DNA from: Squalus acanthias | Taxonomy: Eukaryota | Length of the DNA: 64,000 nt | Direction: 5' to 3' | Assembly (NCBI GenBank): GCA_030390025.1 | Contig: JASTWF010000033.1 | Location: forward strand, 3,350,001-3,414,000 | In this document: positions 3,500 through 62,635 of the stretch, piece by piece | How positions within the stretch are numbered: the first letter of the stretch is position 1 | Layout of the letters: every line of letters begins with the position of its first letter | Notes under the pieces: model-generated | The model's input: only the letters and a program-made list of their open reading frames with translations | Told to the model about the DNA's origin: nothing | Database searches by the model: none | Translations under genes and position numbers: made by a program

Positions 3500-4830
3500 C
3501 CATCGTGCTCCTACGAAGTGCTCCCCCAGTGGCTACGGAATGGCTGATGGTAGGCTGCTGACTTTCAATGGGGAGACTGCAGATGGACTTGCAGGAAGAC
3601 CTTGAGCTGCTCTGGGCCTGGAATGCCCGGCTGTAGACTGCACCACCTCGGCATGGACGGCAGCAGCCTGAGTTGGCTGGATGACAGCCAGCAGCAAGGG
3701 CACTGCCAGAGTTGCAGTGGTGGGAGTATGAATGCTGTCATCCTGAGAGAGGACTGCAGGTTCTTGCTCTGTGGAGGCACTGCCACTTCCCAGGGTGGCG
3801 CCTCAGCAATTCTAGCCATCTATTTGGTGAAAGATTGCCGGAGTGTTGTGAGACCCCGCACCTCATACTCGTAAATCCAGCCACGATGGCAGCAATGTGA
3901 GCTTCCACTGCAGTACTGAGACGTTGGGTCGCTTCCGCCTGTGCTGCAATGGAAGCTGTGACATCACACATCACACACAGCATCATGGCTGGGTCTACTA
4001 GGTCTCTCATGGAGTTGCCCATCATTTCCATCCTGGAAATCACGGGCTCCAAGCTCCGTGCAAATTCCTGTGCAATGTTGGAGCTGGACATCTCCATGCT
4101 CCTTGGCACTGACAAGAGGCCCTCTGGCAGGCTTCCCATTGCACCTAGCATTTCAGTGTGCATACCCATCACCCTTCTTCTGATGGCCGTCCCATTGAGG
4201 TCATGATCTGATTACTGTGCATCAGAACTCGTGCATGAACTCACCCACTGGGGAGCTGACACCCATCTATCTTTTTCCCCTGACCTGGCTGCAGCCCACT
4301 GGTGTCCAGTAACTCACCACCTGCAGAGCCTGCCTCTATACTACATTCTAAAATCCTCGCAGTGCCATTTTCTGAGCAGGTGCCTGTGAATATCAGATGC
4401 ATTGACGGTGGTCCTGCACTGCTCTCCTCCAAAGATTCGGGGACAGGTTGGCGTAGTTGGAATTCGTGCATATCTGAAAGGAGAAAGGCACAAGGGTCGA
4501 GATGTGGTGAGGGATGGGGGATAGCAAGATATCCATGCCTACACCATCAGTGTGTTGCATTGAGCAATGTGTGAGGCTTGTGGTACAGATGGTGCGATAT
4601 GGCATTTGATGATGCATTCAACCACCTTGACCACTCGTCTGAGGTCATTAAACTTTTTGCGGGACTACATCCAGGTCTTGGGGCTAACACTTGTCGCACT
4701 GACGGCTTCAGCGATCGCCTCCCACAGCCTTCTGTTGTCCTTCCTTGAAAGTCTCTTGCCACTCTTACATAGACGGCCTGACAGCGTCTTTGAAACTCGA
4801 GGACCAAGGCCTCCATTGCTGCATCTGAAA
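3500..4830 (-). pseudogene. Harbinger Myb/SANT-like DNA-binding partner protein, degraded
   Basis: FSDAAMEALV...WEAIAEAVSA...KKFNDL across a frameshift (4640-4830); coiled-coil-like ORF 3738-4172; convergent with the transposase, as in autonomous Harbingers. Confidence 0.7.
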
Positions 4831-39214: not shown

Positions 39215-40088
39215 TATCTCCTCTGGAGATCTTCCCCCCATGTCTGCCAATCTCATAATTCCCCAACCCCGCACAGCCCGCTTCTACGTCCTTCCCAAGA
39301 TCCACAAAGACGACTGCCCTGGTAGACCCATCGTTTCAGCCTGTTCTTGCCCCACAGAACCTATCTCTTACTATCTCGACTATATTTCTTCTCCCCTTGT
39401 CCAGTCTGTTCCCACCTACATCCGCGACTCTTCCTACGCCCTCCGCCACTTTAACACCAGTTTCCAGTTTCCTGGCCCCAACCGCCTCCTTTTCACTATG
39501 GACGTACAATCCCTCTACACCTCCATCTGCCACCAGGATGGCAAGAGGGCGCTCCAATTCTTCCTTGAACAGTGGCCCAACCAGTCCCCAGCCACCACCA
39601 CCCTCCTCCACCTGGCTGAACTTCTTCTCACATTGAACAATTTCTCCTTTGACTACACTCACTTCCTCCAAATCAAAGGTGTTGCTATGGGAACCCGCAT
39701 GGGACCTAGCTGTGCCTGCCTTTTCGTGGGATATGTGGAACACTCTTTGTTCCCTGCGACTCAGGTCCCCTCCTTCACCTATTTTTCCGGTACATTGATG
39801 ACTGTATTGGTGCCGTTTCCTGATCTTGCCTTGAACTAGTTAATTTCATTCAATTTGCTTCCTATTTCCACCCTCCCCTCACCTTCAGATGGTCCATCTC
39901 CGACTCTTCCCTTCCCTTCCTCGACTTCTCCGTCACCATCTCTGGGGATAGGTTATTGACAGACATTCACTACAAGCCCACTGACTACCACAGCTACCTG
40001 GACTACACTTCCTCCCACCCCGGCTGCTGTAAGGACTCTATTCCAATCTCCCAGTTTCTCCGCCTCTGCTTCATCTGCTCTGACGATG
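39215..40088 (+). mobile_element. Penelope-like element reverse transcriptase fragment, cut by an LTR
   Basis: FYVLPKIHK..PGRPIVSACSCPT, DVQSLYTSI, GVAMGTRMGP, then RYIDD, LPFLD and YKPTD in shifted frames. Confidence 0.92.
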
Positions 40089-40746
40089 TGTAGACTTCGC
40101 AAAATCCCCCAGAAACTCGAACAGAACCCTAAGTGAAGTGATTTAAGGTAAAATCCTCAGTTTTGGACATTTTTATAGATTACAAGAAGAAAACCCTGAG
40201 GAAAATGACTTTTCGAATCTTACTATTGGGAAAGACACCTTTCACAGACACACAGGCTGCAGAGGGGCGTGGCCAGGCAGTGTATTAAGCTGTCTGGCAG
40301 TGTGTTTACACTGCCTTCCAATCAAGGAGGAAAAGACAAAACCCAAAACCCTCACAACACACCGAAATATGAATAATCCAATAGCTTTTTGAAATCAATA
40401 AAACATTAAGCAACCCGATTTACTTCATTAAGAACCAATCAACCAGGTATCCACAGGACAGAGTTAAAAGCCCGCCAATAGACCTAGGACAATAGGGATG
40501 AGATTTGTTGCGTATGTAATGCTTTGCCGAGATCGTAAAACGATCAGGACATGTTTAACCCTAAGTTAAAGCCATCAGAACTGGCAAGCCCTCCAAAACT
40601 AGACAATGGACTATACAGGGCTCATTTGAAACCAAAAGGAAACCGTTTTAGTAAGGGGTTTTGGGCGCGAAAAAGACAATATAATTGGAGCCTGTCCCAA
40701 GACTCTCTCTCTCTTGGACTCGCTGACAACGCTGGAACAGATCTCT

Positions 40747-40778
<32 letters not shown>

Positions 40779-41287
40779 GGCCTGCTCCAGCAAAAGACAC
40801 AACAAGCCACGAGGAGGAGGAAAGGAACGCCTACAACTCCACAAACAGACGCAAGAGAAAACAGAGCGACTGCCTCAGTGACCATCGGACACCTCGCAGC
40901 AACAAGGGCCTTACAAAATCTTTTAATCAAAAGATTCTAAAATCCCTGTCAAGCATTCGTTGGTGAGCATTATTCCTGATCTCCTGAAACTAAAAACCTA
41001 GCCAGATAGTGGGATATTTGTGAGGGATAAGGTCTGTGTTGAATATTCTCATCTCCCTCGCTTGTACCGTGTGTTCCCCAACCTGTGTTTTAGTATTAAG
41101 TGTGTTTTAAGTTTGTTACCTTTTTATTTTAATAAAGTCGAAATTCTTACATTAGAACCTGTTGTCTACTGCAATTTTGTTCACAACCCCTAAATAAGTC
41201 CAAAGTCTAGGAACCAGGGGCGTGGGAGCGATTCGAAACACTCACACAGTCAGAAGGCGAAGGCTGACCCCACTACCACTCCCTACA
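40089..41287 (+). repeat. 5' LTR (~1.2 kb)
   Basis: TGTAG...CTACA inverted termini; AATAAA at 41131; followed by a TGG-starting PBS-like motif; homologous to 47829-49024. Confidence 0.9.
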
Positions 41288-41289
41288 TA

Positions 41290-43090
41290 ATGGCGACTGA
41301 GGCAGGCTTTTGGCGAAAGGGTTGTGAAGCAGTAAATGCTGGTTTTGAGGAGAGAACAAAAATGGAAGAGAGGATGTCATCCGATGTATAAAAAAAGGTC
41401 AATATCACCAAGAAATGGGTCCTCAGGCTGTTGCATGCTGAACGTACTATGGACACTGCAGCTGCATGGACTGAGAGCAAGGAATACAATAAGTCTGTGG
41501 AGAAAGCCATATGGTTGGTCTGCTCCCAGAAACATATGCAGCTTATGGGGAAGCGCATTCAGGCTCTCACAGAAGAGCTAAAGGAAGAAAGCCAACTGTC
41601 CCGTGCCAGAGCTATAGCAGGGGGGAAGTTGTTAGCAGAGCTAGACACAAAAGATCATGATCAGTCACAGATGCTGGAGGATCACCGTGCCAGTAAGGGA
41701 TACCTCCATTGTCAGGCCACCGAGGCCAAAAGTAGTGAACTGGCATTGCGGGAAGAGAACACCCGCCTTGCCAAGCAATTAAGGGACTCACAGAGAAGTT
41801 AAACGATGTTCAGGCAGCTTGCAGAGAAGCCAATACAAGGGAGTTTGAGGTAGGGGTCCACGGTCCCTGTCAGAAGCAGATTGAGAGTCTGAAACTTGCT
41901 CTGTCCAAGACAAAAGGCATGCTGTGCCTGATAAGCCCGGGTGCGGCCCAGGTACGCCTGGAAGAGCAAGGGGAGACTGTTCAAACACCACCTGTGGCGC
42001 CAAGGAGAAGCTTGGTTAGGCAGCAGGAGGGGCAGACAATCTTTGAGGCTTATAGGGAGTGCAAACCAGCATCTGTGGCGCCGAGTTTTGACTCGGTCTG
42101 GCAGCAGGGAGAGGGGGGCGAACCGATGCAGGAGAAGTCGGAGCCAGGGCCAATGTGCCCAGCACGACAGCAAAAGTTGGGCCCGCCCGCCGGTAGTGGA
42201 GGTCAGGGTCCCCTTGAAAGTCAATTCTTGGCTCCCCACGGTACACAACAGCTTAGGGCTATGGTAAGACACCTGAGTAAACTTATCCAAAAGGAAAACC
42301 CCTCAGTCCACTTCATGGAGTTGGAGCAGACAGCAGGCATCAACGACTGTGATGATGCCGAGCTGGCAAAAATGCTCCTGTTCTCATTAGATTGCAAACT
42401 ATACCAGTCCCTCTCCACTGAGAGCAAGAGAGGACAGAATGGGTATGCCGCCGTCAGAGAGGAGGTTTTAGAGGCCATGGGAAAGAATGAGGGAAGTCCT
42501 TTCTCCCGGGTGGAGAAAACAGTGCAGCTCGCAGGGGAGACCCCATACGCTTTCGCAGACAGACTGTGGCCGGTGTACAAGGGTACTTGTAATGGGGCTC
42601 TCGAAAGGGCTAACCTGAACAGGGACGAGCTGGCCCACTGGCTATAGCCTAGTGGCAAACAGCTTGCCACGAATAAAAACCAAGGCTGAGCTTTTGTTTG
42701 ACCCGAAAGAACCCCGGGTCACCGTGGAGGCAGTGACCATGCAACTGACCCTAGCCTACCGGAACGGTAGGGGAGCTGAAGACACCCCACCGAAAGGGAA
42801 GGTGCATGCGATAAAGCCCAGTCAGGAAAAGAATGAGCGGCACCAGTAAGGTGGTAAACCCTCCAACACGAAGCGTAGCTGCTTCGGGTGCGGGAAGACT
42901 GGGCACTGGAGAAAGGACTGCAGGAATCCCTGGAAGGATAGCCTAGCAAAGAAGTCCCCAACTCCTGCCCCAAAAGTAGAGGCACCGACCTCTTCCCCCA
43001 CACAGGACAAAATAGTAGCGGCCATCAGAGTCCTGTTTGATTGCCCAGGGAAGGTAGCTACAGCCACTGGCGTTCCAATCACCAAGCCGA
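41290..43090 (+). pseudogene. gag-like gene (coiled coil, capsid-like region, CCHC), interrupted
   Basis: ORF pieces 41290-, 41431-41802, 41919-42647, 42652-42849; QLAGETPYAFADRL capsid-like motif; CFGCGKTGHWRKDC at 42880-42921. Confidence 0.8.
41291..41306 (+). promoter_or_regulatory. Primer-binding site candidate
   Basis: TGGCGACTGAGGCAGG 3 nt after the LTR; partially complementary to a tRNA ending GTCGCCA (Ser-GCT/Arg-like); primer identity uncertain. Confidence 0.6.
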
Positions 43091-43202
43091 CATGTTGGCC
43101 AAAGAGGGCGCCAGTACAGGCACGTTTTGGGATCCATATGGATCAAACCCGGTAGCAGCAATCTGAGGCAGAGGAGGGACCCAAGGGAGAGCAGGAGTAG
43201 CA

Positions 43203-44420
43203 TTGACCCCGGACCTAAAGACGGTCCAGGCACAGGATCCCATCCTAAAAACTGTCCTGGAAACGCTGGCTAGTGTGGAGAAGGTAGAGGGCCCATACGG
43301 TGCAGCAGCCATCAACCACAAAGAAGGCATGCTGTTCAGGAGGGAACAATGGGTAGTGCCGCAGCAGCACCGAAGGGATTTCCTCCAACTGGCCCTTGAG
43401 GGTCCAGGAGGGGGGCATCCCGGGCCAGAGAGCACCTGGCGGCGGGTGGAACAGGCAGGATGGTGGCCAGGAGTGAGGGAGGATTTCTGCGCGTTCTGTG
43501 CAGGCTGTCTGGTGTGTGCTGCTAACAACCCTGACCCCAAAAAAGGAAGGTATCTATGGGACACATCAGGAGGGTAGAGGGACCATGGCAGTCGATGCAG
43601 GTCGACTACATCGGTCCCCTACCCACCGCTCAGGGAGGCTACAAATACTGCCTAGTCTTGGTGGATGTCTTCTCAAAGTGGGTGGAAGCTTTTCCATGTC
43701 GAACAGCTACCGCTTTGGGTACAGCCAGGATCCTGGTCTGGGAAGTGTTCTCACGATGGGGGCTCCCACAGTATGTGGAGTCAGACCAGGGGAGTCACCT
43801 TACTGGGCAGGTTTTGCAAGAGACCCTCAGGGTACTCGGCATAGAAGGGAAATGGCACGTCGCCCACAACCAGGGATTGTGGAGCGTTTAAACCGTGCCA
43901 TGAAAGAAAGGCTGTGAAAGGAGATGGGAGACTCACCCAAAAAGTGGGTAGAAGCGTTACCGTTGGTCCTAATGGGGATCCGGGCCAGCCACTCAAAAAG
44001 CACGGGCTATTCCCCATACCAGCTCATGACTGGCAGGATTATGCGGACCCCACCCATGTGCTAGCCCCGGTGCTCACGGAAGGGCAGCTCAGGAAGGTGA
44101 ACCGGGACGGATTCGTCAGGAATCTGTTGGACCACCTTAAATAGGGCTACTGGCAGGCTGCGAGTAACAGGGGAAAACAGCATCGGGGTAACCGATTGCT
44201 GCTGGAACCAAACAAGCACCACGAGTGTGAGGTTGGAGATCAGGTCATGGTGAGAAATTTTGCCCGGGTAGGGAGTTTCGAACCATTGTACATGGGGCCC
44301 TACAACATTGTAGACAAGGCAAGCCCCATGGTCTATGCCATAAAGATGCCCCGCCGTACAAAGTGGTTTCACATCAACCAATGCAAACTGTTTAATCCTA
44401 AACGGGAACAGCCGGCAAAG
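43203..44420 (+). pseudogene. Integrase (zinc-binding, DDE core, GPY/F), frameshifted
   Basis: GHPG..WWPGV..CAGCLVC; PWQSMQVDYIGPLP..VDVFSKWVEAFP..SDQGSH; VERLNR; GDQVMVRN..YMGPY. Confidence 0.93.
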
Positions 44421-45203
44421 GTGGACTGCCCCCAAGTTAGAAATCCTCAGCGAGCCGCAGCTGTGGCAGACGCACACATGCAGCGGGAGGGACAGTGTGT
44501 TGTTCCACAGGAGATGTCACTCCACCGATTATGTGGGACTCAAACACACCCCCAGTGGCCAGAGCCCTAAGAAGGTCTCCCCGCACACCACAGCAAAGGT
44601 TACTGTGGCCACAGGTGTATCTTTTTAGAGGGTCCCAACCAAAGAGGGTTGCAACCCGAAGAAGAGCGCCCAAGAGCAGGGAACGTTATAAAGTTGGGGA
44701 TTCCCATCCTACAGCCTCCGACCGTGAGGGTTTCACAGGAGAGGTAGTACTGGGAGAAGAGAGAGATAAGTGTCCCCAGCCTGCAGCCTCAGGCTGGGAG
44801 GAGCCCACAGATATGAACGAGGGCGCTGCAGCCACACCAAAGGGGGTAGTGTGCTGCAGCACAGGACGCAGCTGGGATGTTAAGATACCCCCAGCGGTTT
44901 TGAGGAAGGCCTTCTGGGTCCGGCGGTACAGGCCGCACTGCTCCCCAGATGTACAAGCCATCCAGAGGCCACATAAGGCAGAGACTAAACAGGATTTAAT
45001 CTGCCCGTCCGGAGACGTGCGGCAAATGTGCAGATTGTTTTCGGTTTTAAGTAATTGCAGTTTTGGTGGTTATGGGTTATCATTAGTTTAGTTGTTTGTA
45101 GAGTTTTTTTTAAGTTTAAGGGCTTGATTAATTATCCAGCCAGAGAACCTTTCTGGGACATGGATATATGTTTTGTGTGTGCCCCGACAGAAAGTACTTC
45201 GGA

Positions 45204-47560
45204 ATGACAAGGTTTCTGCTCCTGCTCGCCCTGGTAGGGGTGAGCATCGGTGACCGAGGTGACGTGGAGGACTCCCACATCTATGGGTGCTCAGGAGTGA
45301 GAGCACCAGTCGTCACCGCAGGGGGTGGCGAGCGGGGAGTGGAGGAGCTCGACATCTACTTCCACGAGGGAAGATGGCCAGGGTGGCTGGGGTCCCACTC
45401 TACTAAATACCTCAACCAGCCCGGGTTCACGTACGGGGAGGCCTCCCTCCCATGCCCCAGAATGCAGGTCGTTGCCACAAGGGTCAGTGTCACCGAGGGG
45501 AAGCGTTTGTGCCTTACCTGTAAGGGACGAAATCCCCTGAATAGGTGGTGGTGGCTCAGGAGGCTGAGCAGGGAAGCAGGGGACCATACAGCCGAGTGGG
45601 AAAGATAAGGGAACGACACCCACCGGAAAATCACAGGAACCCAATGAGGAGTTAGTGTTTGTTGGAATAAGTTGTGGGAGTCGGAAGAGGGAGTCTATGT
45701 TTTATATGTGGGGATCTGAGGAAGCCTGCCCCACAGGGGTATCCATCATCTTCTCCAGCCAATGGCAAGATGCCGGGGAGGTGATAGGGTGGGATTCTAG
45801 CCTGCATGGGTGCGTGGTCCCACACATTCCGGTCCCAGTTAATGCCACTGAACTCGTGGCACACACCCGAAAGCCCCTACCCACGACCCAGGAAGAAAAG
45901 TGCCCTACCAACAGTAAGGGGCCAGGGAATGGGTTAGTGCTAGTACCAACCGAAAAGGTACTATACCAGTGGGTACACTATGCAGTAGCTTCAGTAATAT
46001 TAAACCTTACCGAGGTATACTTACCTGAGTGGTGTTCCAAGGAGACGAAGCAGCTGTACCAGGCCCTGCTAAAGGAAATATTTAGGACATTTTATGCATT
46101 TGATTTTGCCAATATTGACAAGGTAGAGCTATACAGAATACACCCTGAGAACCCTATGGGCACGGGTAGACAAAGAAGGGGAGCCTGGAATGATGTCTTC
46201 ACTGCCTATAGTACAGGGTCCTCTGTAATAAATAGCCTGGATGACATGGAATTACAGACACAGATAAATGGTTTAAAAACCCAGTTAAGAAAGATCCTGA
46301 ACGATGGGAACACAGTGGTTGGCTCAGAGCTACATGAGGACCAAGCTTTGACGGTTCATTTAAAGGAAATTATTGCAGAATTGGAAAGGCATGCCAAAAC
46401 AGTAAATGCACACATGCGGGAGGATATGAATGCACCGGATCAGGCTGCACAGAATGAGGTGTGTGTGCTGTACGGGGCATGGTTGCTGGGCGAGGGCAGT
46501 AGCAACCTGGAGGATTTAATGCAAGGTTTTGTCCCCTCCTGGATCAGCAACAAGCACCTCGAAGCCCTCCACCCGTTTAGTAATTCGCTAAGCCCATGCC
46601 AATTTCTTCTAGCCTCTGAAGCTTACCTTGTCCCAATAGATTGTGGGCGTTCAAATCACACTATCATGGGGATAGTAGTGAGAATGCCGGTCATGAGTGG
46701 GACAGCCCGACCCGTACCGGTATACAGGGTGGAGAACATTGGAGTCATTCAAGGGGGTGCACACATCCGTTTTACAGCGGTCCCACCTTATGTCATAAAG
46801 TAGGTGCACGCCATGACAGGGACTGACCTCTCCGGGTTGCGGAGCCGGGGTTTACACATAATACTGTGTCCCCAGCACTTGAACGCCTATTCGAAACCAC
46901 AGTGCGGGTTTAAAGCTGCTGACGCACGACCGATCAACTGTACCACGGAGGTGATGGCACACGGCCATGTTTCCCCACAGGTTGCATATATAGGGGGTTG
47001 GGCATATTGTGTCACCACAGGTGCGTCCCACTACCAGCATGGACACTTCTGGTGTCCGGTAAGTGACAGCAGTTTCTGCTTTAAACCCGAGGAAGAATTT
47101 CAAGTGGCCCAGGAACGGATTGTCCCCATTCCTGACCCCTCCACTGTTCACCTCACTGTAACAGAAAACATCACCAACCTGCAAAAGTATGTGACTTACT
47201 TTGGATGTAAAATTCCCCCTCTAAACGAACATCTTACCATCCTGCTTAAATCTGTAGAGATTTCACAAAAACATTTCTACACCCTGGAACAGAAAACAGT
47301 TGAAATAGGGGCAGAAATTTTGGATATAGTAGTTCCACCCTGGTGGTATATTTTCGAGAATATAGAGGTGCCTTCCTGGATCAGGATGGCTTCCCGCTCT
47401 TTTGGTGGTCTGCCAGCTCGGGATAGTTCTCTACCTGCTGTGTACAAAGTGCAGGGGAAGGGACGGGGAGCACTGCTCCAGACACGAAGGGACTTGGGAA
47501 GTGCTTCAAAATAAAGGCTATGGCCAGGAATGGAACGAACCTTGAATTTTGTCGTTTAAT
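45204..47560 (+). pseudogene. env-like class I fusion glycoprotein, several stops/frameshifts
   Basis: Signal peptide MTRFLLLLALVGVSIG; RQRR furin site at 46168-46179 followed by GAWNDVFTAYSTGSSVINS; heptad region; Cys-rich region; TM LVVCQLGIVLYLLC after a frameshift at ~47401. Confidence 0.8.
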
Positions 47561-47828
47561 AAAAAATGTTGTATATGTGTTGTGTCACTTTTATGATGTG
47601 TATGATGTGTTTTTTAAAAGCTGTGCAGGGGTGTCGGACCCTCTCCGTGCTTGGATGTGAAATAAAGATTGATTCTTACCTGTATGTACCTGAAACACCA
47701 CTTTCAAAAGAGGAATGAATGTTTGGGTTTTTAGTTTAGGTAATACAGGGGAAGGTTGGTTTTCGGGGACCGGAAATTTTGCTCACCTGTTAATGATACT
47801 AATTCAGTTATAGTATCAAAGTGGGGGA

Positions 47829-49024
47829 TGTAGGCTTCGCAAAATCCCCCAGAAACTCGAACAGAGCCCTAAAGGGAGTGATTTTTGGACTTTTCATACA
47901 ATCTTGGGATGATGGGGCCTAAGTGAAGTTATTTGATTTAAAAACCTAAAGATCAGGGAAGAAAACAACCTGAGGAAACTGACTTTTTGAATCTTACTGT
48001 TGGGAGAGACACCTTTCACAGACACAAGCTTCGAGGGTCGTGGCCGGGCAGTGAACAGATCAAGCTGTCTGGGAATTGTTTACACTGCGAATCCTACCAA
48101 GGTGCAAGAGACAAAGCAAAAACTCACAAACACATTCAAATATGAATTCCCAGGGGCAAAAAAGAGGCTGGAAATCTAAAAACGATTCCTGACAATAAAA
48201 TTTCGATCACACAGTTTCATAGCCATTATCCCATCAAAAAAACCAATCACCAGGTATCCACTGAACAGTTTTAAAAGCCCGCCAACAGACCTAGGACAAT
48301 AGGGTGGAGATTTGGCGCGTAGATAAGGCTGTGTTTAAATAGGAATACGATCAAGCCATGTTTAACACTGAGCAAAAGCCATCGGAACTGGCAAGCCCGC
48401 CAAAACTAGACAATTGGACTAAGCAAGGTTCATTTGCAACCAAAAGGAATCCGTTTCAGGAAGTGTTTTTTGGGCGTGGAAAAGAAACAGTATAACTTGA
48501 AAGCCTGGGCCATAATCTCTCTCTCTTTCGGACTGGCTGACCAGGCGTACACAGCTCTCTCCCTGCTCCAGCAAAACCTACCACAAGCCACGAGGAAGAA
48601 GGCCAGAAAACAGACCAGCACGCAAGAAGAAACCAGAGCGACTGCCTCAGTGACTTTCGGACACTTCGCAGCAACAAGGGCCTTGTGGAGTCTTTTAAAC
48701 AAAAGACTGTAAAAAATCCGTCAAGGATTCGTTGGTGAGCATTATCCCCGATCTCCTGAAAACAAAAACCGAGCTAGATAGTGGGATCTTTAGGAAGGAT
48801 AAGGTTTTGTTTGATATATTGTCATTTCCCTCGCTTGTACCGTGTGCTCCCCATCTGTGTTTTAAGTAATACGTGTGTTTCAAGTTTGTTACCTTTTTCT
48901 TTTAATGAAGTAAAATTCTTTCATCAGAACCTGTCGTTTACTGCAATTGTGTTCATAACCCCTAAATAATTCCAAAGTCCAGGAACCGGAGGGGTGTGGG
49001 AGCGATTACGATACCCCTTACACA
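47829..49024 (+). repeat. 3' LTR (right end degraded), preceded by PPT AAAGTGGGGGA
   Basis: Starts TGTAGGCTTCGCAAAATCCCCCAG; collinear with the 5' LTR. Confidence 0.88.
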
Positions 49025-49190
49025 TGTCACTGTAAATTTTAGTTCAATGTGGGTGGGAGGAAGTGTGTGTGAGTGAGAGAGGGGCAGACAGACAGTCAGT
49101 GAGAGAGAGAGACTTGAAATCAAAAGGCAAGATGCAGAATAGAAAGCCTGTTGCTTTAGGCCGCAAAGTAAAAGAATGAGATACTGAAAT

Positions 49191-49424
49191 TGTAGGCTTC
49201 GCAAAATCCCCCAGAAACTCGAACAGAACCCTAAGTGAAGTGATTTGAAGTAAAAACCTCAGTTTTGGACATTTTTAAAGATCAAGGAAGAAAAACCCCG
49301 AGGAAAATGACTTTTTGAATCTTATTGTGGGGAAAGACAACTTTCACAGACGCAGACAGGCTGCGGAGGGGCGTGGCCAGGCAGTGGACAGCTTTTGGTA
49401 TTGGGGCCCAATCAAGCTGTCTGA
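49191..49424 (+). repeat. Third, truncated LTR of the same family
   Basis: TGTAGGCTTCGCAAAATCCCCCAGAAACTCG...; ends where a CR1 begins. Confidence 0.85.
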
Positions 49425-59111: not shown

Positions 59112-59848
59112 AAACATGGCCGTCTGTAGGTTACACAAACATGGCCGTCTGTAGGTGACACAAAACATCGCCGTCTGTAGGCCACACAAACATGGCCGTC
59201 AACAGGCGACACAGACATGGCCGTCTGTAGGTGTCACAAACATGGCCGTCTGTAGGTGACACAGACATGGCCGTCTGTAGTTGACACAAACATGGCCGTC
59301 TGTAGGTGTCACAGACATGGCCGACTGTAGTTGACAAAAAAATGGCCGTCTGGAGGTGTCACAATCATGGCCGTCTGTAGGTGACACAAACATGGCCGTC
59401 TGTAGGTGTCACAGACATGGCCGACTGTAGTTGACAAAAAATGGCCGTCTGGAGGTGTCACAATCATGGCCGTCTGTAGGTGACACAAACATGGCCGTCT
59501 GTAGGTGACACAAACATGGCCGTCTGTAGGTGACACAAACATGGCCGTCTGTAGGTGACACAAACATGGCCGTCTGTAGGTCACACAAACATGGCCGTCT
59601 GTAGCTGACACAAACATGGCCGTCTGTAGGTGACACAAACATGGCCGTCTGTAGGTGACACAAACATGGCCGTCTGCAGGTGACACAAACATGGCCGTTT
59701 GTAGGTGACACAAACATGGCCGTCAGTAGGTGACACAAACATGACCGTCTGTAGGTGACACAAACATGGCCGTCAGTAGGTGACATATTCATGGCCGTCT
59801 GTAGGTGACACAAACATGGCCGTCTGTAGGTGACACAAACATGACCGC
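59112..59848. repeat. 25-bp minisatellite, ~29-30 copies
   Basis: AAACATGGCCGTCTGTAGGTGACAC head-to-tail. Confidence 0.97.
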
Positions 59849-60889: not shown

Positions 60890-62430
60890 AGAAATGTTGA
60901 GGGTGTTAGGTGGAGGTGGGGTGCTGCTCAGTATATTAGATGGATGTGGAGGATCTGAGAATGTTAGATTTAGCTGGGGAGGAGCTGAAGATATCAGGTG
61001 AGCAATGGAGGAACTATGGACATTAGGAGGGGTGGGAAGGATCTGAGGAAATTATTTTGGTGGTGGGACTTTGAGTATATTTTGTTGGGTGTTGATGAAC
61101 TGAGGATATTAGGTGGGTTTGGGGAGCAGCTGAAGTTATTAGGTGGGGTGGTGAGGAGCTGAGGATAATTGGTGGGTTGGGGAGGAGCTGAGGATATTAG
61201 GTGGGCTGGGGAGGAGCTGACGATATTAGGTGGGGTGGGGTGTAGCTGGGGATATTAGGTGGGGTGGGGAGGAGCTGAGGATATTCGATGGTTGGGGAGG
61301 AGTTGAGGATATCAGGTGGGTGGGGAGGAGCTGAGGATATTAGGTGGGGTGGGGAGGAGCTGAGGATATTAGGTGGAGTGGGAAGGAGCTGAGGATATTA
61401 GGTGGGGTGGGGAGGAGCTGAGGATATTAGTTGGGGTGGGGAGGAGTTGAGGATCTTAGTTGAGGTGGGGAAGAGCTGACGATATTAGGTGGGCTGTGGA
61501 GGAGCTGAGGATATTAGGTGGGTTGGGGAGGAGCTGAGGATGTTAGGTGGGGTGGGAAGGAGCTGATGATATTAGGTGGGGTGGGGAGGAGCTGAGGATA
61601 TTAGGTGGAGTGGGAAGGAGCTGAGGATATTAGGTGGGGTGGGGAGGAGCTGAGGATATTAGTTGGGGTGGGGAGGAGTTGAGGATCTTAGTTGAGGTGG
61701 GGAAGAGCTGACGATATTAGGTGGGCTGTGGAGGAGCTGAGGATATTAGGTGGGTTGGGGAGGAGTTGAGGATGTTAGGTGGGGTGGGGAGGAGCTGATG
61801 ATATTCGGTGGGGTGGGGAGGAGCTGAGGATATTAGGTGTGGAAGGGAGGAGCTGAGGATATTAGATGTGGTGGGGAGGAGCTGAGGATATTAGGTGGGG
61901 TGGGGAGGAGCTAAGGATATTAGGTAGGGTGGGGAGGAGCTGAGGATATTAGGTGGGGTGTGGAGGAGCTGAGGATATTAGGTGTGGTGGGGAGGAGCTG
62001 AGGATATTAGGTGGTGTGGGGAGGAGCTGAGGATATTAGGTGGGGTGGGGATGAGCTGAGGATATTAGGTGGGGCGGGGAGGAGCTGAGGATATTAGGTG
62101 GGGTGGGGAGGAGCTGAGGATATTGGATGTGGTGGGGGGAGCTGAGGATATTAGGTGGGGTGGGGAGTAGCTGAGGATATTAGGTGTGGTGGGGAGGAGC
62201 TGAATATATTAGGTGGGGTGGGGAGGAGCTGAGGATATTAGGTTTGGTGGTGAGGAGCTGAGGATATTAGGTGGGGTGAGGAGGAGCTGAGCATAATTGG
62301 TGGGTTGGGGAGGACCTGAGGATATTAGGTGGGGTGGGGAGGAGCTGAGGATATTAGGTGGGGTGGGGATGAGCTGAGGATAATTGGTGGGTTAAGGAGG
62401 AGCTGAGGATAAAAGGTGGGTTGGGGAAGA
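60890..62430. repeat. 29-bp G-rich minisatellite, ~50 copies
   Basis: GAGGAGCTGAGGATATTAGGTGGGGTGGG; degenerate at the left edge. Confidence 0.97.
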
Positions 62431-62635
62431 GTCGTGGTGACAAGTTGTTTTTCAGACTGGAGGGAGGTATACAGAAGTGTACCGTAGGAGTCGCTATTAG
62501 AGTACTGCTATTTTTGATACATATTAATGACCTAGAGTTGGGTAAACACAACATCATTTTATAGTTTTCGAATTAAACGAAATTCTGAAATCCAGTACAC
62601 AATGAGAAGGGCAGTAACAGAGTTCAGGAGAAAAA

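What the first reader, a model, noticed from the sequence alone, without database searches (positions are those of the whole stretch)
45204..47560. env-like gene combining an Ig-like domain with a non-orthoretroviral class I fusion protein
The stitched protein reads: signal peptide; Ig-like pattern (VSVTEGKRLCLTC...WWW...VCWNKLWESEEGVYV, resembling the B-strand Cys, C-strand Trp and D/E-x-G-x-Y-x-C motif); RQRR cleavage site; fusion-peptide-like segment; heptads; a long Cys-rich region; then a TM helix. The long post-cleavage ectodomain, with no visible immunosuppressive/CX6CC motif, looks more like paramyxo/pneumovirus F or errantivirus/baculovirus F. F-like env is established for lokiretroviruses. 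The Ig-like module could be a captured host domain for receptor binding (inference).
Basis: partly seen in the sequence, partly recalled or inferred. Interest (0 to 1): 0.75.

Follow-up and report, generated by a model that had tools for sequence, protein, structure and literature searches.

The report
Ig-headed F-type shark retrovirus envelope
This is a broken copy of the envelope gene of an abundant endogenous retrovirus in a shark-type genome; its unbroken sister copies encode a predicted paramyxovirus-F-type fusion protein topped by a likely antibody-like (Ig) domain that probably grips the target cell, on a backbone that is likely snakehead-retrovirus-like rather than lokiretroviral.

Summary
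Observation confirmed; interpretation mostly right. 45204-47545 is a dead env (three stops, two frameshifts) of an LTR element that lacks PR-RT-RH. The family has at least 40 copies at 94-100% identity, and 7 of 30 fetched have an open 784-codon env. Residues 232-735 of a natural open copy fold like class Ib fusogens: Foldseek hPIV3 F E 6e-11; VIA Z 12.2 NDV F, 8.7 foamy Env. No CX6CC motif. The extra ~230-residue head likely holds a V-type Ig domain. Landmarks and spacing are exact and conserved, but scores are weak (Pfam Ig_3 E 0.008-0.1, model pLDDT 50-63, Z 5-6). A distant relative carries a clearer V-set head on the same core. RT places the family inside retroviruses proper, apart from lokiretroviruses (AU p 0.025-0.063), nearest snakehead retrovirus by hand comparison. 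'Non-orthoretroviral' is overstated: walleye epsilonretrovirus Envs also match the fold. Receptor binding and host capture are inferred, not shown. Related Envs carry different heads, suggesting head swapping. I found no paper on this layout in 10 searches. This scan already noted it on many other copies in the same genome.

The parts
40089..41287 (+). 5' LTR (TG...CA)
   Evidence: blastn against the 3' LTR 75%; ends; K2P 0.16 to the 3' LTR
41291..41308 (+). primer binding site, degenerate here; in family copies complementary to tRNA-Arg(TCG)
   Evidence: family PBS; pattern built from it gave 429 genomic matches, 0 for the control; ARAGORN calls tRNA-Arg(tcg) at 2 of 2 loci scanned
41309..43075 (+). 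gag, broken, with CCHC zinc knuckle (~42877-42925); start boundary approximate
   Evidence: zf-CCHC E 1e-4; frames
43075..43076 (+). junction where ~2.37 kb (protease, RT, tether, most of RNase H) present in full-length copies is absent
   Evidence: blastn of 20 upstream regions; 13 of 20 hold a YVDD RT
43167..45091 (+). integrase (H2C2, rve, SH3-like CTD) plus ~200-residue C-terminal pol tail, broken
   Evidence: Pfam; open 1419-aa pol in a sister copy
45204..45251 (+). env signal peptide
   Evidence: sequence; hydropathy
45252..45452 (+). N-terminal extension ahead of the Ig core (residues 17-83); conserved in skate and sawshark relatives, fold unresolved
   Evidence: pLDDT <50
45453..45775 (+). 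likely V-type Ig-like domain (residues ~84-190); two stops and one frame change lie inside it in this copy
45776..45900 (+). Cys-containing segment and Pro/Thr-rich linker
45901..46179 (+). F2-like subunit ending in furin site RQRR (46168-46179)
46180..47380 (+). F1-like ectodomain: fusion peptide, HRA, beta-rich Cys domains, HRB; one stop at 46801
   Evidence: AF2 model of an open sister copy; Foldseek and VIA
47381..47545 (+). TM helix and ~35-residue cytoplasmic tail, after a frame change
47812..47828 (+). polypurine tract
47829..49022 (+). 3' LTR

Best explanation
The gene is a dead copy of the env of a multi-copy endogenous retrovirus, likely of the snakehead-retrovirus (SnRV)-like lineage, whose Env is predicted to be a paramyxovirus-F-type (class Ib) fusogen with a likely V-type Ig domain at its front that probably serves as the built-in receptor-binding head. 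SHOWN: LTR-gag-pol-env family, open 784-codon env in sister copies, RQRR site, TM. PREDICTED: F fold for residues 232-735; beta-sandwich for residues ~84-190. INFERRED from class Ib biology (PMC11468914): Env trimerises and is cut by furin at RQRR. The N-terminal subunit (Ig head + linker + F2) stays part of the fusion core. The head binds a cell-surface receptor, and binding (possibly with endosomal pH) frees the fusion peptide so that HRA/HRB refold into a six-helix bundle. A lone F-type Env has no separate attachment protein, so the head would play the part of coronavirus S1 or the foamy RBD. The head was likely acquired from a host Ig-superfamily gene long ago and has been swapped between lineages.
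For: F core: Foldseek PDB top hits hPIV3 F E 6e-11, RSV F 4e-10, NDV F 2.5e-9, foamy Env 6.5e-7. VIA: all 16 chains with Z>=5 of 48,161 are F or foamy Env, best Z 12.2 (rmsd 18.1, 339 aligned) against 4.7 for the next. BFVD: lispivirus, baculovirus F and paramyxovirus F. Ig: Pfam Ig_3 over residues 85-167, E 0.008-0.1 in 4 of 4 queries and E 0.0085 in homolog P0009. ESM Atlas top hits Ig clan at 0.85. The model's beta-sandwich matches mostly V-set domains, Z 5.2-6.1, and Foldseek rows are nearly all V domains. B-Cys, C-Trp, G-x-Y-x-C kept in 30, 30 and 27-29 of 30 copies and in skate and sawshark homologs at 57-71% identity. E-strand-to-F-Cys spacing equals an antibody V domain (13 residues), and the two extra cysteines (C103, C153) fall on the paired B/E positions L20/L74 (Kabat numbering recalled). 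Distant homolog P0033 (20% identity over the core) has a clearer V-set head (Atlas 0.93, 185 of 256 features). Ig region pN/pS 0.38 vs 0.74 for F1 among 7 open copies (small counts, shared ancestry). RT: inside retroviruses proper 100/96, loki clade separate 100/99. 36 of 47 residues identical to SnRV in the core RT block vs 27 WDSV, 25 ZFERV-2, 24 a loki, 23 HERV-L (hand count). Precedents: Ig-type RBDs and SIRP capture in gamma-type Env; N-terminal RBDs on class Ib scaffolds.
Against: The head model is low confidence (mean pLDDT 39, core 50-63). Its best VIA hit was a phage tail protein (Z 6.1, tied with TCR/antibody V domains), no Foldseek row reached E<=0.001, and Atlas 0.85 is lead-level only. 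Pfam scores are below cut-off, and the PDB sequence search found nothing. The head shows no significant profile similarity to the heads of P0013, P0024, P0033 or the second shark family beyond shuffles. No host donor was identified; P0033's best cellular hit (HEPACAM) has E 5.4. No binding or fusion data. The fusion peptide is weakly hydrophobic. No named SnRV sequence was in my tree, and the wider-clade AU test against loki was not significant (p 0.063).
Confidence: 0.6

Rival explanations
1. The Ig head is real but is not the entry receptor-binding domain. It is an immune mimic or decoy (as viral CD200/CD48/SIRP-like proteins are) or a shield that stabilises the prefusion trimer, and attachment is done by the F core itself, as in RSV/hMPV F.
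For: Loki Envs read in the supplement start directly at the F2 motif with no head, so an F core can stand alone. Heads differ between lineages on the same core. P0033's head resembles adhesion-type V domains. Viral Ig decoys and F-mediated attachment are recalled.
Against: The head is fused in the N-terminal subunit, at the position class Ib scaffolds use for receptor modules. Ig-fold RBDs are established in gamma-type Env. Head swapping mirrors the RBD transfers described by Hotzel.
Confidence: 0.22
2. The head is a beta-sandwich that only resembles Ig (convergent or of old viral origin); it was not captured from a vertebrate gene.
For: Low-confidence model; top VIA hit a phage tail protein; no significant similarity to any host protein. 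Unusual W-x-x-W-W in place of the usual I-x-x-L; the second shark family mostly lacks the F-strand Cys (20 of 25 have W).
Against: Exact V-domain spacing and landmarks; four methods point to the Ig clan; a relative has a clearer V-set head.
Confidence: 0.12
3. The element is a cartilaginous-fish lokiretrovirus, or an SnRV-like pol that took its env from a lokiretrovirus and later added the head.
For: By eye the core shares loki Env motifs (GP-x-x-G-x-V-L at the F2 start, furin site, Y-R/K-x-x-x-V/I-G, C-G). Dual RNase H. Wider-clade AU p 0.063.
Against: RT motif LPQGFHNSP vs loki (C/T)PFGY(A/S)NSP; separate strongly supported clades; narrow AU p 0.025. None of the 6 chondrichthyan genomes I looked up in the loki survey is starred as positive. 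The env-swap version was not tested with loki Env sequences in a tree.
Confidence: 0.06

Closest known systems
Lokiretrovirus Env (Wang and Han, PMC7947760; main text parts 1-3 of 4 and supplement passages read)
   Same: F-like Env with signal peptide, R-x-K/R-R site, fusion peptide, coiled coil and TM on an LTR-gag-pol-env element with tether + RNase H; core motifs alignable by eye
   Different: The loki Envs seen (4 near-complete of 23 listed) begin at the F2 motif with no ~230-residue head; RT motif and clade differ; not reported in the shark genomes screened
Snakehead retrovirus (SnRV) and SnRV-like / clade Huo ERVs (PMC4422223 part 1 of 2; PMC6001957, PMC4977317, PMC12193657 passages)
   Same: Closest named RT by hand count (36 of 47); RNase H motifs alike; SnRV-like ERVs known in elephant shark, coelacanth and amphibians, matching the hosts of the pol and env hits; Arg PBS (SnRV's Arg PBS is recalled)
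   Different: SnRV Env was not retrieved, so its fold and head are untested; SnRV has a 136-residue Env tail and accessory ORFs, here the tail is ~35 residues
Foamy virus Env, class Ib (PMC11468914; passages and section 10 read)
   Same: Retroviral Env built on the paramyxo/pneumovirus F core (VIA Z 8.7 and 8.3) with an added receptor module
   Different: Foamy RBD is a novel fold inserted inside the N-subunit; here the module is N-terminal (like coronavirus S1) and Ig-like; Gag has a CCHC knuckle
Gamma-type RBD-C and SIRP-like RBD of Env-Dbi (Hotzel, bioRxiv 10.1101/2024.03.17.585361; abstract and passages read)
   Same: N-terminal IgV-type receptor-binding domain on a retroviral Env; host capture and RBD swapping
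   Different: Those sit on class Ia gamma-type scaffolds; here the scaffold is class Ib, and no host donor is recognisable
Errantivirus / baculovirus F-type Env (bioRxiv 10.1101/2023.10.26.564294, section 6 part 1 read) and walleye epsilonretrovirus Env
   Same: Same F fold (BFVD: baculovirus F E 7e-12, WEHV-1 Env 6e-8, WDSV Env 1e-5)
   Different: Errantiviruses are Ty3/gypsy; no Ig head is described in the part read; epsilon Envs are 1150-1300 aa

Membership tests
Class Ib (F-type) fusion protein | F-like three-domain core built from both subunits | tested here: met
   AF2 pLDDT 66; Foldseek E 6e-11; VIA Z 12.2
Class Ib (F-type) fusion protein | Furin site, then fusion peptide, HRA, HRB, TM | tested here: met
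   RQRR at residue 327; helices 119-213 and 449-482 of the model; TM at 733; fusion peptide only weakly hydrophobic
Class Ib (F-type) fusion protein | Trimer and membrane fusion activity | not tested
   No trimer model run; activity needs the bench
Gamma-type Env | CX6CC, ISD and short class Ia TM subunit | tested here: not met
   No CX6CC/CX7CC; ~400-residue post-cleavage ectodomain with F fold. ISD not searched separately; no TLV_coat Pfam hit
Ig superfamily V-set | B-strand Cys, C-strand Trp, D/E-x-G-x-Y-x-C with V spacing | tested here: met
   C106, W116/117, E161-x-G163-x-Y165-x-C167, conserved in 27-30 of 30 copies; spacing comparison recalled
Ig superfamily V-set | Significant profile or structure match | tested here: inconclusive
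   Pfam E 0.008-0.1 below cut-off; Atlas 0.85; Z 5-6; Foldseek E>=0.003
Ig superfamily V-set | Identifiable host donor gene | tested here: inconclusive
   None for this head; HEPACAM E 5.4 for a relative's head; host genome not searched with this head
Lokiretrovirus | RT falls in the loki clade, sister to sampled retroviruses | tested here: not met
   Loki-motif clade 100/99 excludes the query; AU p 0.025 (narrow), 0.063 (wide); loki rows labelled by motif from the supplement
Lokiretrovirus | F-like Env and dual RNase H | tested here: met
   (shared with other retroviruses, so not diagnostic)
Retroviridae (ERV) | LTR-PBS-gag-pol(PR-RT-tether-RH-IN)-env-PPT-LTR with TSD | tested here: met
   Family level; 4-bp TSD read in 3 of 10 copies; window copy lacks PR-RT-RH
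SnRV-like / clade Huo | RT groups with SnRV in a tree | tested here: inconclusive
   No named SnRV row available to the tree; hand count 36 of 47 favours SnRV; nearest rows are frog and coelacanth ERV pols
Spumaretrovirinae | Gag without Cys-His box, A9 protease, internal RBD in Env | tested here: not met
   zf-CCHC present; protease hits RVP/gag-asp families and no foamy family listed; F2 only ~95 residues (family features recalled, RBD)

The most novel reading that the evidence does not exclude
SnRV-like retroviruses of sharks, skates and frogs use an undescribed Env design: an F-type class Ib fusogen with a swappable N-terminal attachment head, captured repeatedly from host Ig-superfamily genes. 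At least four head types sit on one core: this W-rich IgV, a second shark IgV-like head, a Cys-less HEPACAM-like V-set, and a non-Ig Cys-rich module. This would make F-type Env widespread or ancestral across Retroviridae (loki, foamy, SnRV-like, walleye epsilon), and would give a retroviral counterpart of coronavirus S1 acquisition.
Probability: 0.4. Interest if true: 0.7.

Novelty: new variant of a known kind. Interest (0 to 1): 0.5.

Why it matters
F-type Envs were thought to mark foamy viruses and lokiretroviruses as exceptions among retroviruses, and Ig-type receptor-binding domains were known only on gamma-type scaffolds. An Ig head on an F core in a third lineage, with different heads on related cores, supports the idea that the class Ib scaffold is a modular chassis, and bears on which Env type the first retroviruses had. 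The family is young in part (LTR pairs 1-2% apart) with open env frames, so the head's structure and binding partner are directly testable as an isolated domain. Both ingredients have precedents, and this window's copy is dead, which caps the surprise.

Tried and rejected
PDB sequence searches with the open Env and with P0033 found nothing; P0013 gave only weak antibody VH hits, E 0.05-0.85. The core profile gave only E 0.11-0.18 to foamy Env. The N-terminal profile search was spoiled by a zinc-finger overhang from a chimeric gene model. A first N-terminal alignment misaligned the three distant homologs; they were left out of the fold alignment. hhalign between heads of different families did not clearly beat shuffles, so common origin of the heads is not shown. 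Pfam finds no Fusion_gly or Baculo_F on the query; weak hits only on relatives (Baculo_F E 0.001 on P0035, Fusion_gly E 0.036 on L086). Expression: no RNA holder on record; three runs only guessed to be RNA have contigs across the stretch, which I do not count as evidence. An integrase tree was not built; RT was used instead. No complex prediction was run. SnRV Env was not seen by name in any hit list (20 of 46 env hits were looked up; BFVD ranks 2, 15 and 50 are unnamed), which does not exclude it. Literature: 10 searches found no description of an Ig head on an F-type retroviral Env. The cartilaginous-fish foamy virus paper (PMC9972966) was not held; Calcraft 2024 (Cell) was seen only as a citation; bioRxiv supplements are closed; the loki supplement was cut at 300 of 318 pages. 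Any of these could bear on novelty.

Full report
OBSERVATION. The window copy is dead: stops at 45606, 45645 and 46801, frame changes near 45,70x and 47,39x. The stitched reading is nonetheless real. A DNA search of the own genome (3.7 Gb) scored 40 of 3392 candidates, all 94-100% identical over nearly the whole gene. Of 30 fetched loci, 7 hold one open 784-codon frame. I used such natural copies unchanged for all searches and folds.

THE ELEMENT. The env lies in an LTR element: 5' LTR 40089-41287, PBS, gag with a CCHC knuckle, integrase, env, PPT, 3' LTR 47829-49022. It has no RT. Of 20 sister copies checked upstream of env, 13 carry an extra ~2.37 kb at window 43075/43076 with protease and a YVDD RT, and 7 belong to another deleted subtype. 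One copy has an open 1419-aa pol: PR-RT-tether-RNase H-IN. The family PBS matches tRNA-Arg(TCG). Of 10 full-length copies, LTR pairs differ by 1.3-2.2% in four, 0.6-2.5% over partial alignments in three, and about 8% in two; one gave no pair. 4-bp TSDs were readable in three. The window copy's LTRs differ by 16% although its env is ~5% from young copies, so it is probably old and recombinant. At least four other loci share its 5' flank at 92-96%, so it was also spread by segmental duplication. The host is a cartilaginous fish by inference: the nearest homologs are from Rhinoraja and Pristiophorus.

FUSION CORE. AlphaFold2 on residues 232-735 with a 32-row alignment gave pLDDT 66. Foldseek's best PDB hits are hPIV3 F (E 6e-11), RSV F, NDV F and henipavirus F, with foamy Env at 6.5e-7. 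In VIA, all 16 chains with Z>=5 of 48,161 are F proteins or foamy Env (best Z 12.2, rmsd 18.1, 339 aligned; next unrelated 4.7). BFVD adds lispivirus and baculovirus F, and also WEHV-1 and WDSV Env (E 6e-8, 1e-5). There is no CX6CC. The core is therefore a class Ib fusogen in the sense of Fernandez et al. (PMC11468914), not gamma-type. The fusion peptide is only weakly hydrophobic.

THE HEAD. The loki Envs read in the supplement of PMC7947760 begin directly at the GP-x-x-G-x-V-L motif that here sits at residue ~244, so ~230 residues are extra. Evidence for Ig is concordant but individually weak. Pfam Ig_3 covers residues 85-167 at E 0.008-0.1. ESM Atlas gives 0.85 with 9 of 10 family hits in the Ig clan. 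The model has mean pLDDT 39 (core 50-63), and its matches are mostly V-set domains at Z 5.2-6.1, though the top row is a phage tail protein; Foldseek E is >=0.003. The landmarks C106, W116, G163, Y165 and C167 are kept in 30, 30, 29, 29 and 27 of 30 copies and in skate and sawshark relatives at 57-71% identity. From recalled Kabat numbering, the E-strand-to-F-Cys distance equals that of an antibody V domain, and the two extra cysteines C103 and C153 fall on the cross-strand pair L20/L74. pN/pS is 0.38 in the head versus 0.74 in F1 among the 7 open copies (few sites, non-independent). I put the Ig fold at about 0.8.

RELATIVES AND HEAD DIVERSITY. phmmer over 1.84 billion proteins gave 46 hits at E<=0.001. 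Of 20 looked up, the named ones come from sharks (Mustelus, Chiloscyllium, Heterodontus, Scyliorhinus, Heptranchias, Pristiophorus), a skate, frogs (Pelodytes, Xenopus) and coelacanth. Full-length relatives carry different heads. P0013 is annotated 'Ig-like domain-containing' by UniRef. P0033 has a Cys-less V-set head (Atlas 0.93; weakest-grade hit to HEPACAM, E 5.4). P0024 has an Ig-like pattern by eye. P0012 and P0028 have a different Cys-rich head. A second family in the same genome has a related core, an RT in the same clade and a head sharing an unusual W-x-x-F/W-W-x4-G-x-Y signature but mostly lacking the F-strand Cys. Profile comparison between heads does not clearly beat shuffles. In a core tree the query falls on the side of the Cys-rich-head Envs, away from P0013/P0024/P0033 (95/93). 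This pattern suggests repeated head gain or exchange; that is inference.

LINEAGE. An RT tree from 120 homologs, then IQ-TREE on 52 rows thinned from them, gives gypsy outgroup | a (C/T)PFGY clade (100/99) | retroviruses proper (100/96). The PFGY motif is that of the published lokiretroviruses. The query (LPQGFHNSP) is in the third group, with frog and coelacanth ERV pols (96/92). Forcing it with loki gives AU p 0.025 (query and closest row) or 0.063 (whole near group). None of the 6 chondrichthyan genomes I looked up in the loki survey is starred as positive. No named references could be put in the tree. By hand count on a 47-residue RT block the query matches SnRV at 36, WDSV 27, ZFERV-2 25, a loki 24 and HERV-L 23. 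SnRV-like ERVs are reported from elephant shark, coelacanth and amphibians. So: likely SnRV-like, not loki. SnRV is described as an unclassified orthoretrovirus, so 'non-orthoretroviral' holds for the fold class as published but not for the carrier.

MECHANISM. Most likely (0.6) the Env trimer is furin-cleaved, the Ig head on the N-subunit binds a cell receptor, and the F core refolds to fuse membranes. Class Ib scaffolds take receptor modules at the N terminus (coronavirus spike) or internally (foamy), and IgV-type RBDs, including a captured SIRP domain, are known on gamma-type Env. Rivals: immune decoy or prefusion shield (0.22); non-Ig or non-host sandwich (0.12); loki member or loki-derived env (0.06). 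No binding, fusion or expression was shown.

NOVELTY. Ten literature searches found no report of an Ig head on an F-type retroviral Env or of the fold of SnRV-like Env; unread papers and supplements are listed under Tried and rejected. Papers seen: PMC7947760 (main text parts 1-3 of 4, supplement passages), PMC11468914 (passages, section 10), PMC4422223 (part 1 of 2), bioRxiv 2023.10.26.564294 (abstract, section 6 part 1), bioRxiv 2024.03.17.585361 (abstract, passages), and passages only of PMC12583693, PMC10435555, PMC6001957, PMC12193657, PMC4977317, PMC9967133 and PMC13709493. The scan itself had already noted this layout on other copies in the same genome; those notes are not independent support. 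Verdict: new variant of a known kind, interest 0.5.

Noticed in passing
BFVD hits Q9WHI8, A4GTG3: Predicted Envs of walleye epidermal hyperplasia virus 1 and walleye dermal sarcoma virus match the F-type model (E 6e-8, 1e-5), suggesting exogenous epsilonretroviruses also have class Ib Env; a review passage calls their Env 'distinct' from gamma-type.
   Followed up: no
L086 (G000:C4:121881432-121886423) and L123: A second ERV family in the same genome (83 matches to P0013) with an F-type env, a different Ig-like head mostly lacking the F-strand Cys, and an RT in the same clade.
   Followed up: partly
P0012 (Mustelus), P0028 (Pristiophorus): Same F core with a different, Cys-rich N-terminal module that has no convincing Pfam match.
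   Followed up: no
window 44441-45091; L053 pol residues ~1220-1419: Pol has a ~200-residue C-terminal tail after the integrase CTD with no Pfam hit.
   Followed up: no
L044, L046, L048, L052, L058, L060, L061: Second deleted subtype (7 of 20) that keeps gag, protease and env but lacks RT through most of IN; likely non-autonomous and amplified in trans.
   Followed up: partly
window 39747-49060 vs L032-L034, L038, L002: The window insertion is duplicated with its host flank on other contigs at 92-96%, and a 99% inverted copy lies ~250 kb away on the same contig.
   Followed up: partly
window 49191-49386: A truncated third LTR start (~197 bp) just downstream of the 3' LTR.
   Followed up: no
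L003-L030, about 4130-4620 on the strand opposite to env: An antisense stop-to-stop frame of 163-216 codons over the PPT/U3 start in many copies; may be chance inheritance.
   Followed up: no
P0003, P0004, P0035: Shark gene models fuse pieces of this env family to zinc-finger, Niban-like and FBXO15 genes; could be annotation artefacts or exonisation.
   Followed up: no
window 20214-26330: GC-rich non-LTR retrotransposon with an ORF1 containing a zinc knuckle and an open 1306-aa endonuclease-RT ORF2, Tx1-like by recalled resemblance.
   Followed up: no
window 59112-59847 and 60898-62431: Minisatellites of 25 bp x 29 and 29 bp x 53 copies.
   Followed up: no
G000:C26 about 39.0-42.2 Mb: Long tandem arrays (period ~1.62 kb) matching tRNA-Arg(TCG), one with a neighbouring tRNA-Ser gene; 429 pattern matches genome-wide.
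   Followed up: no
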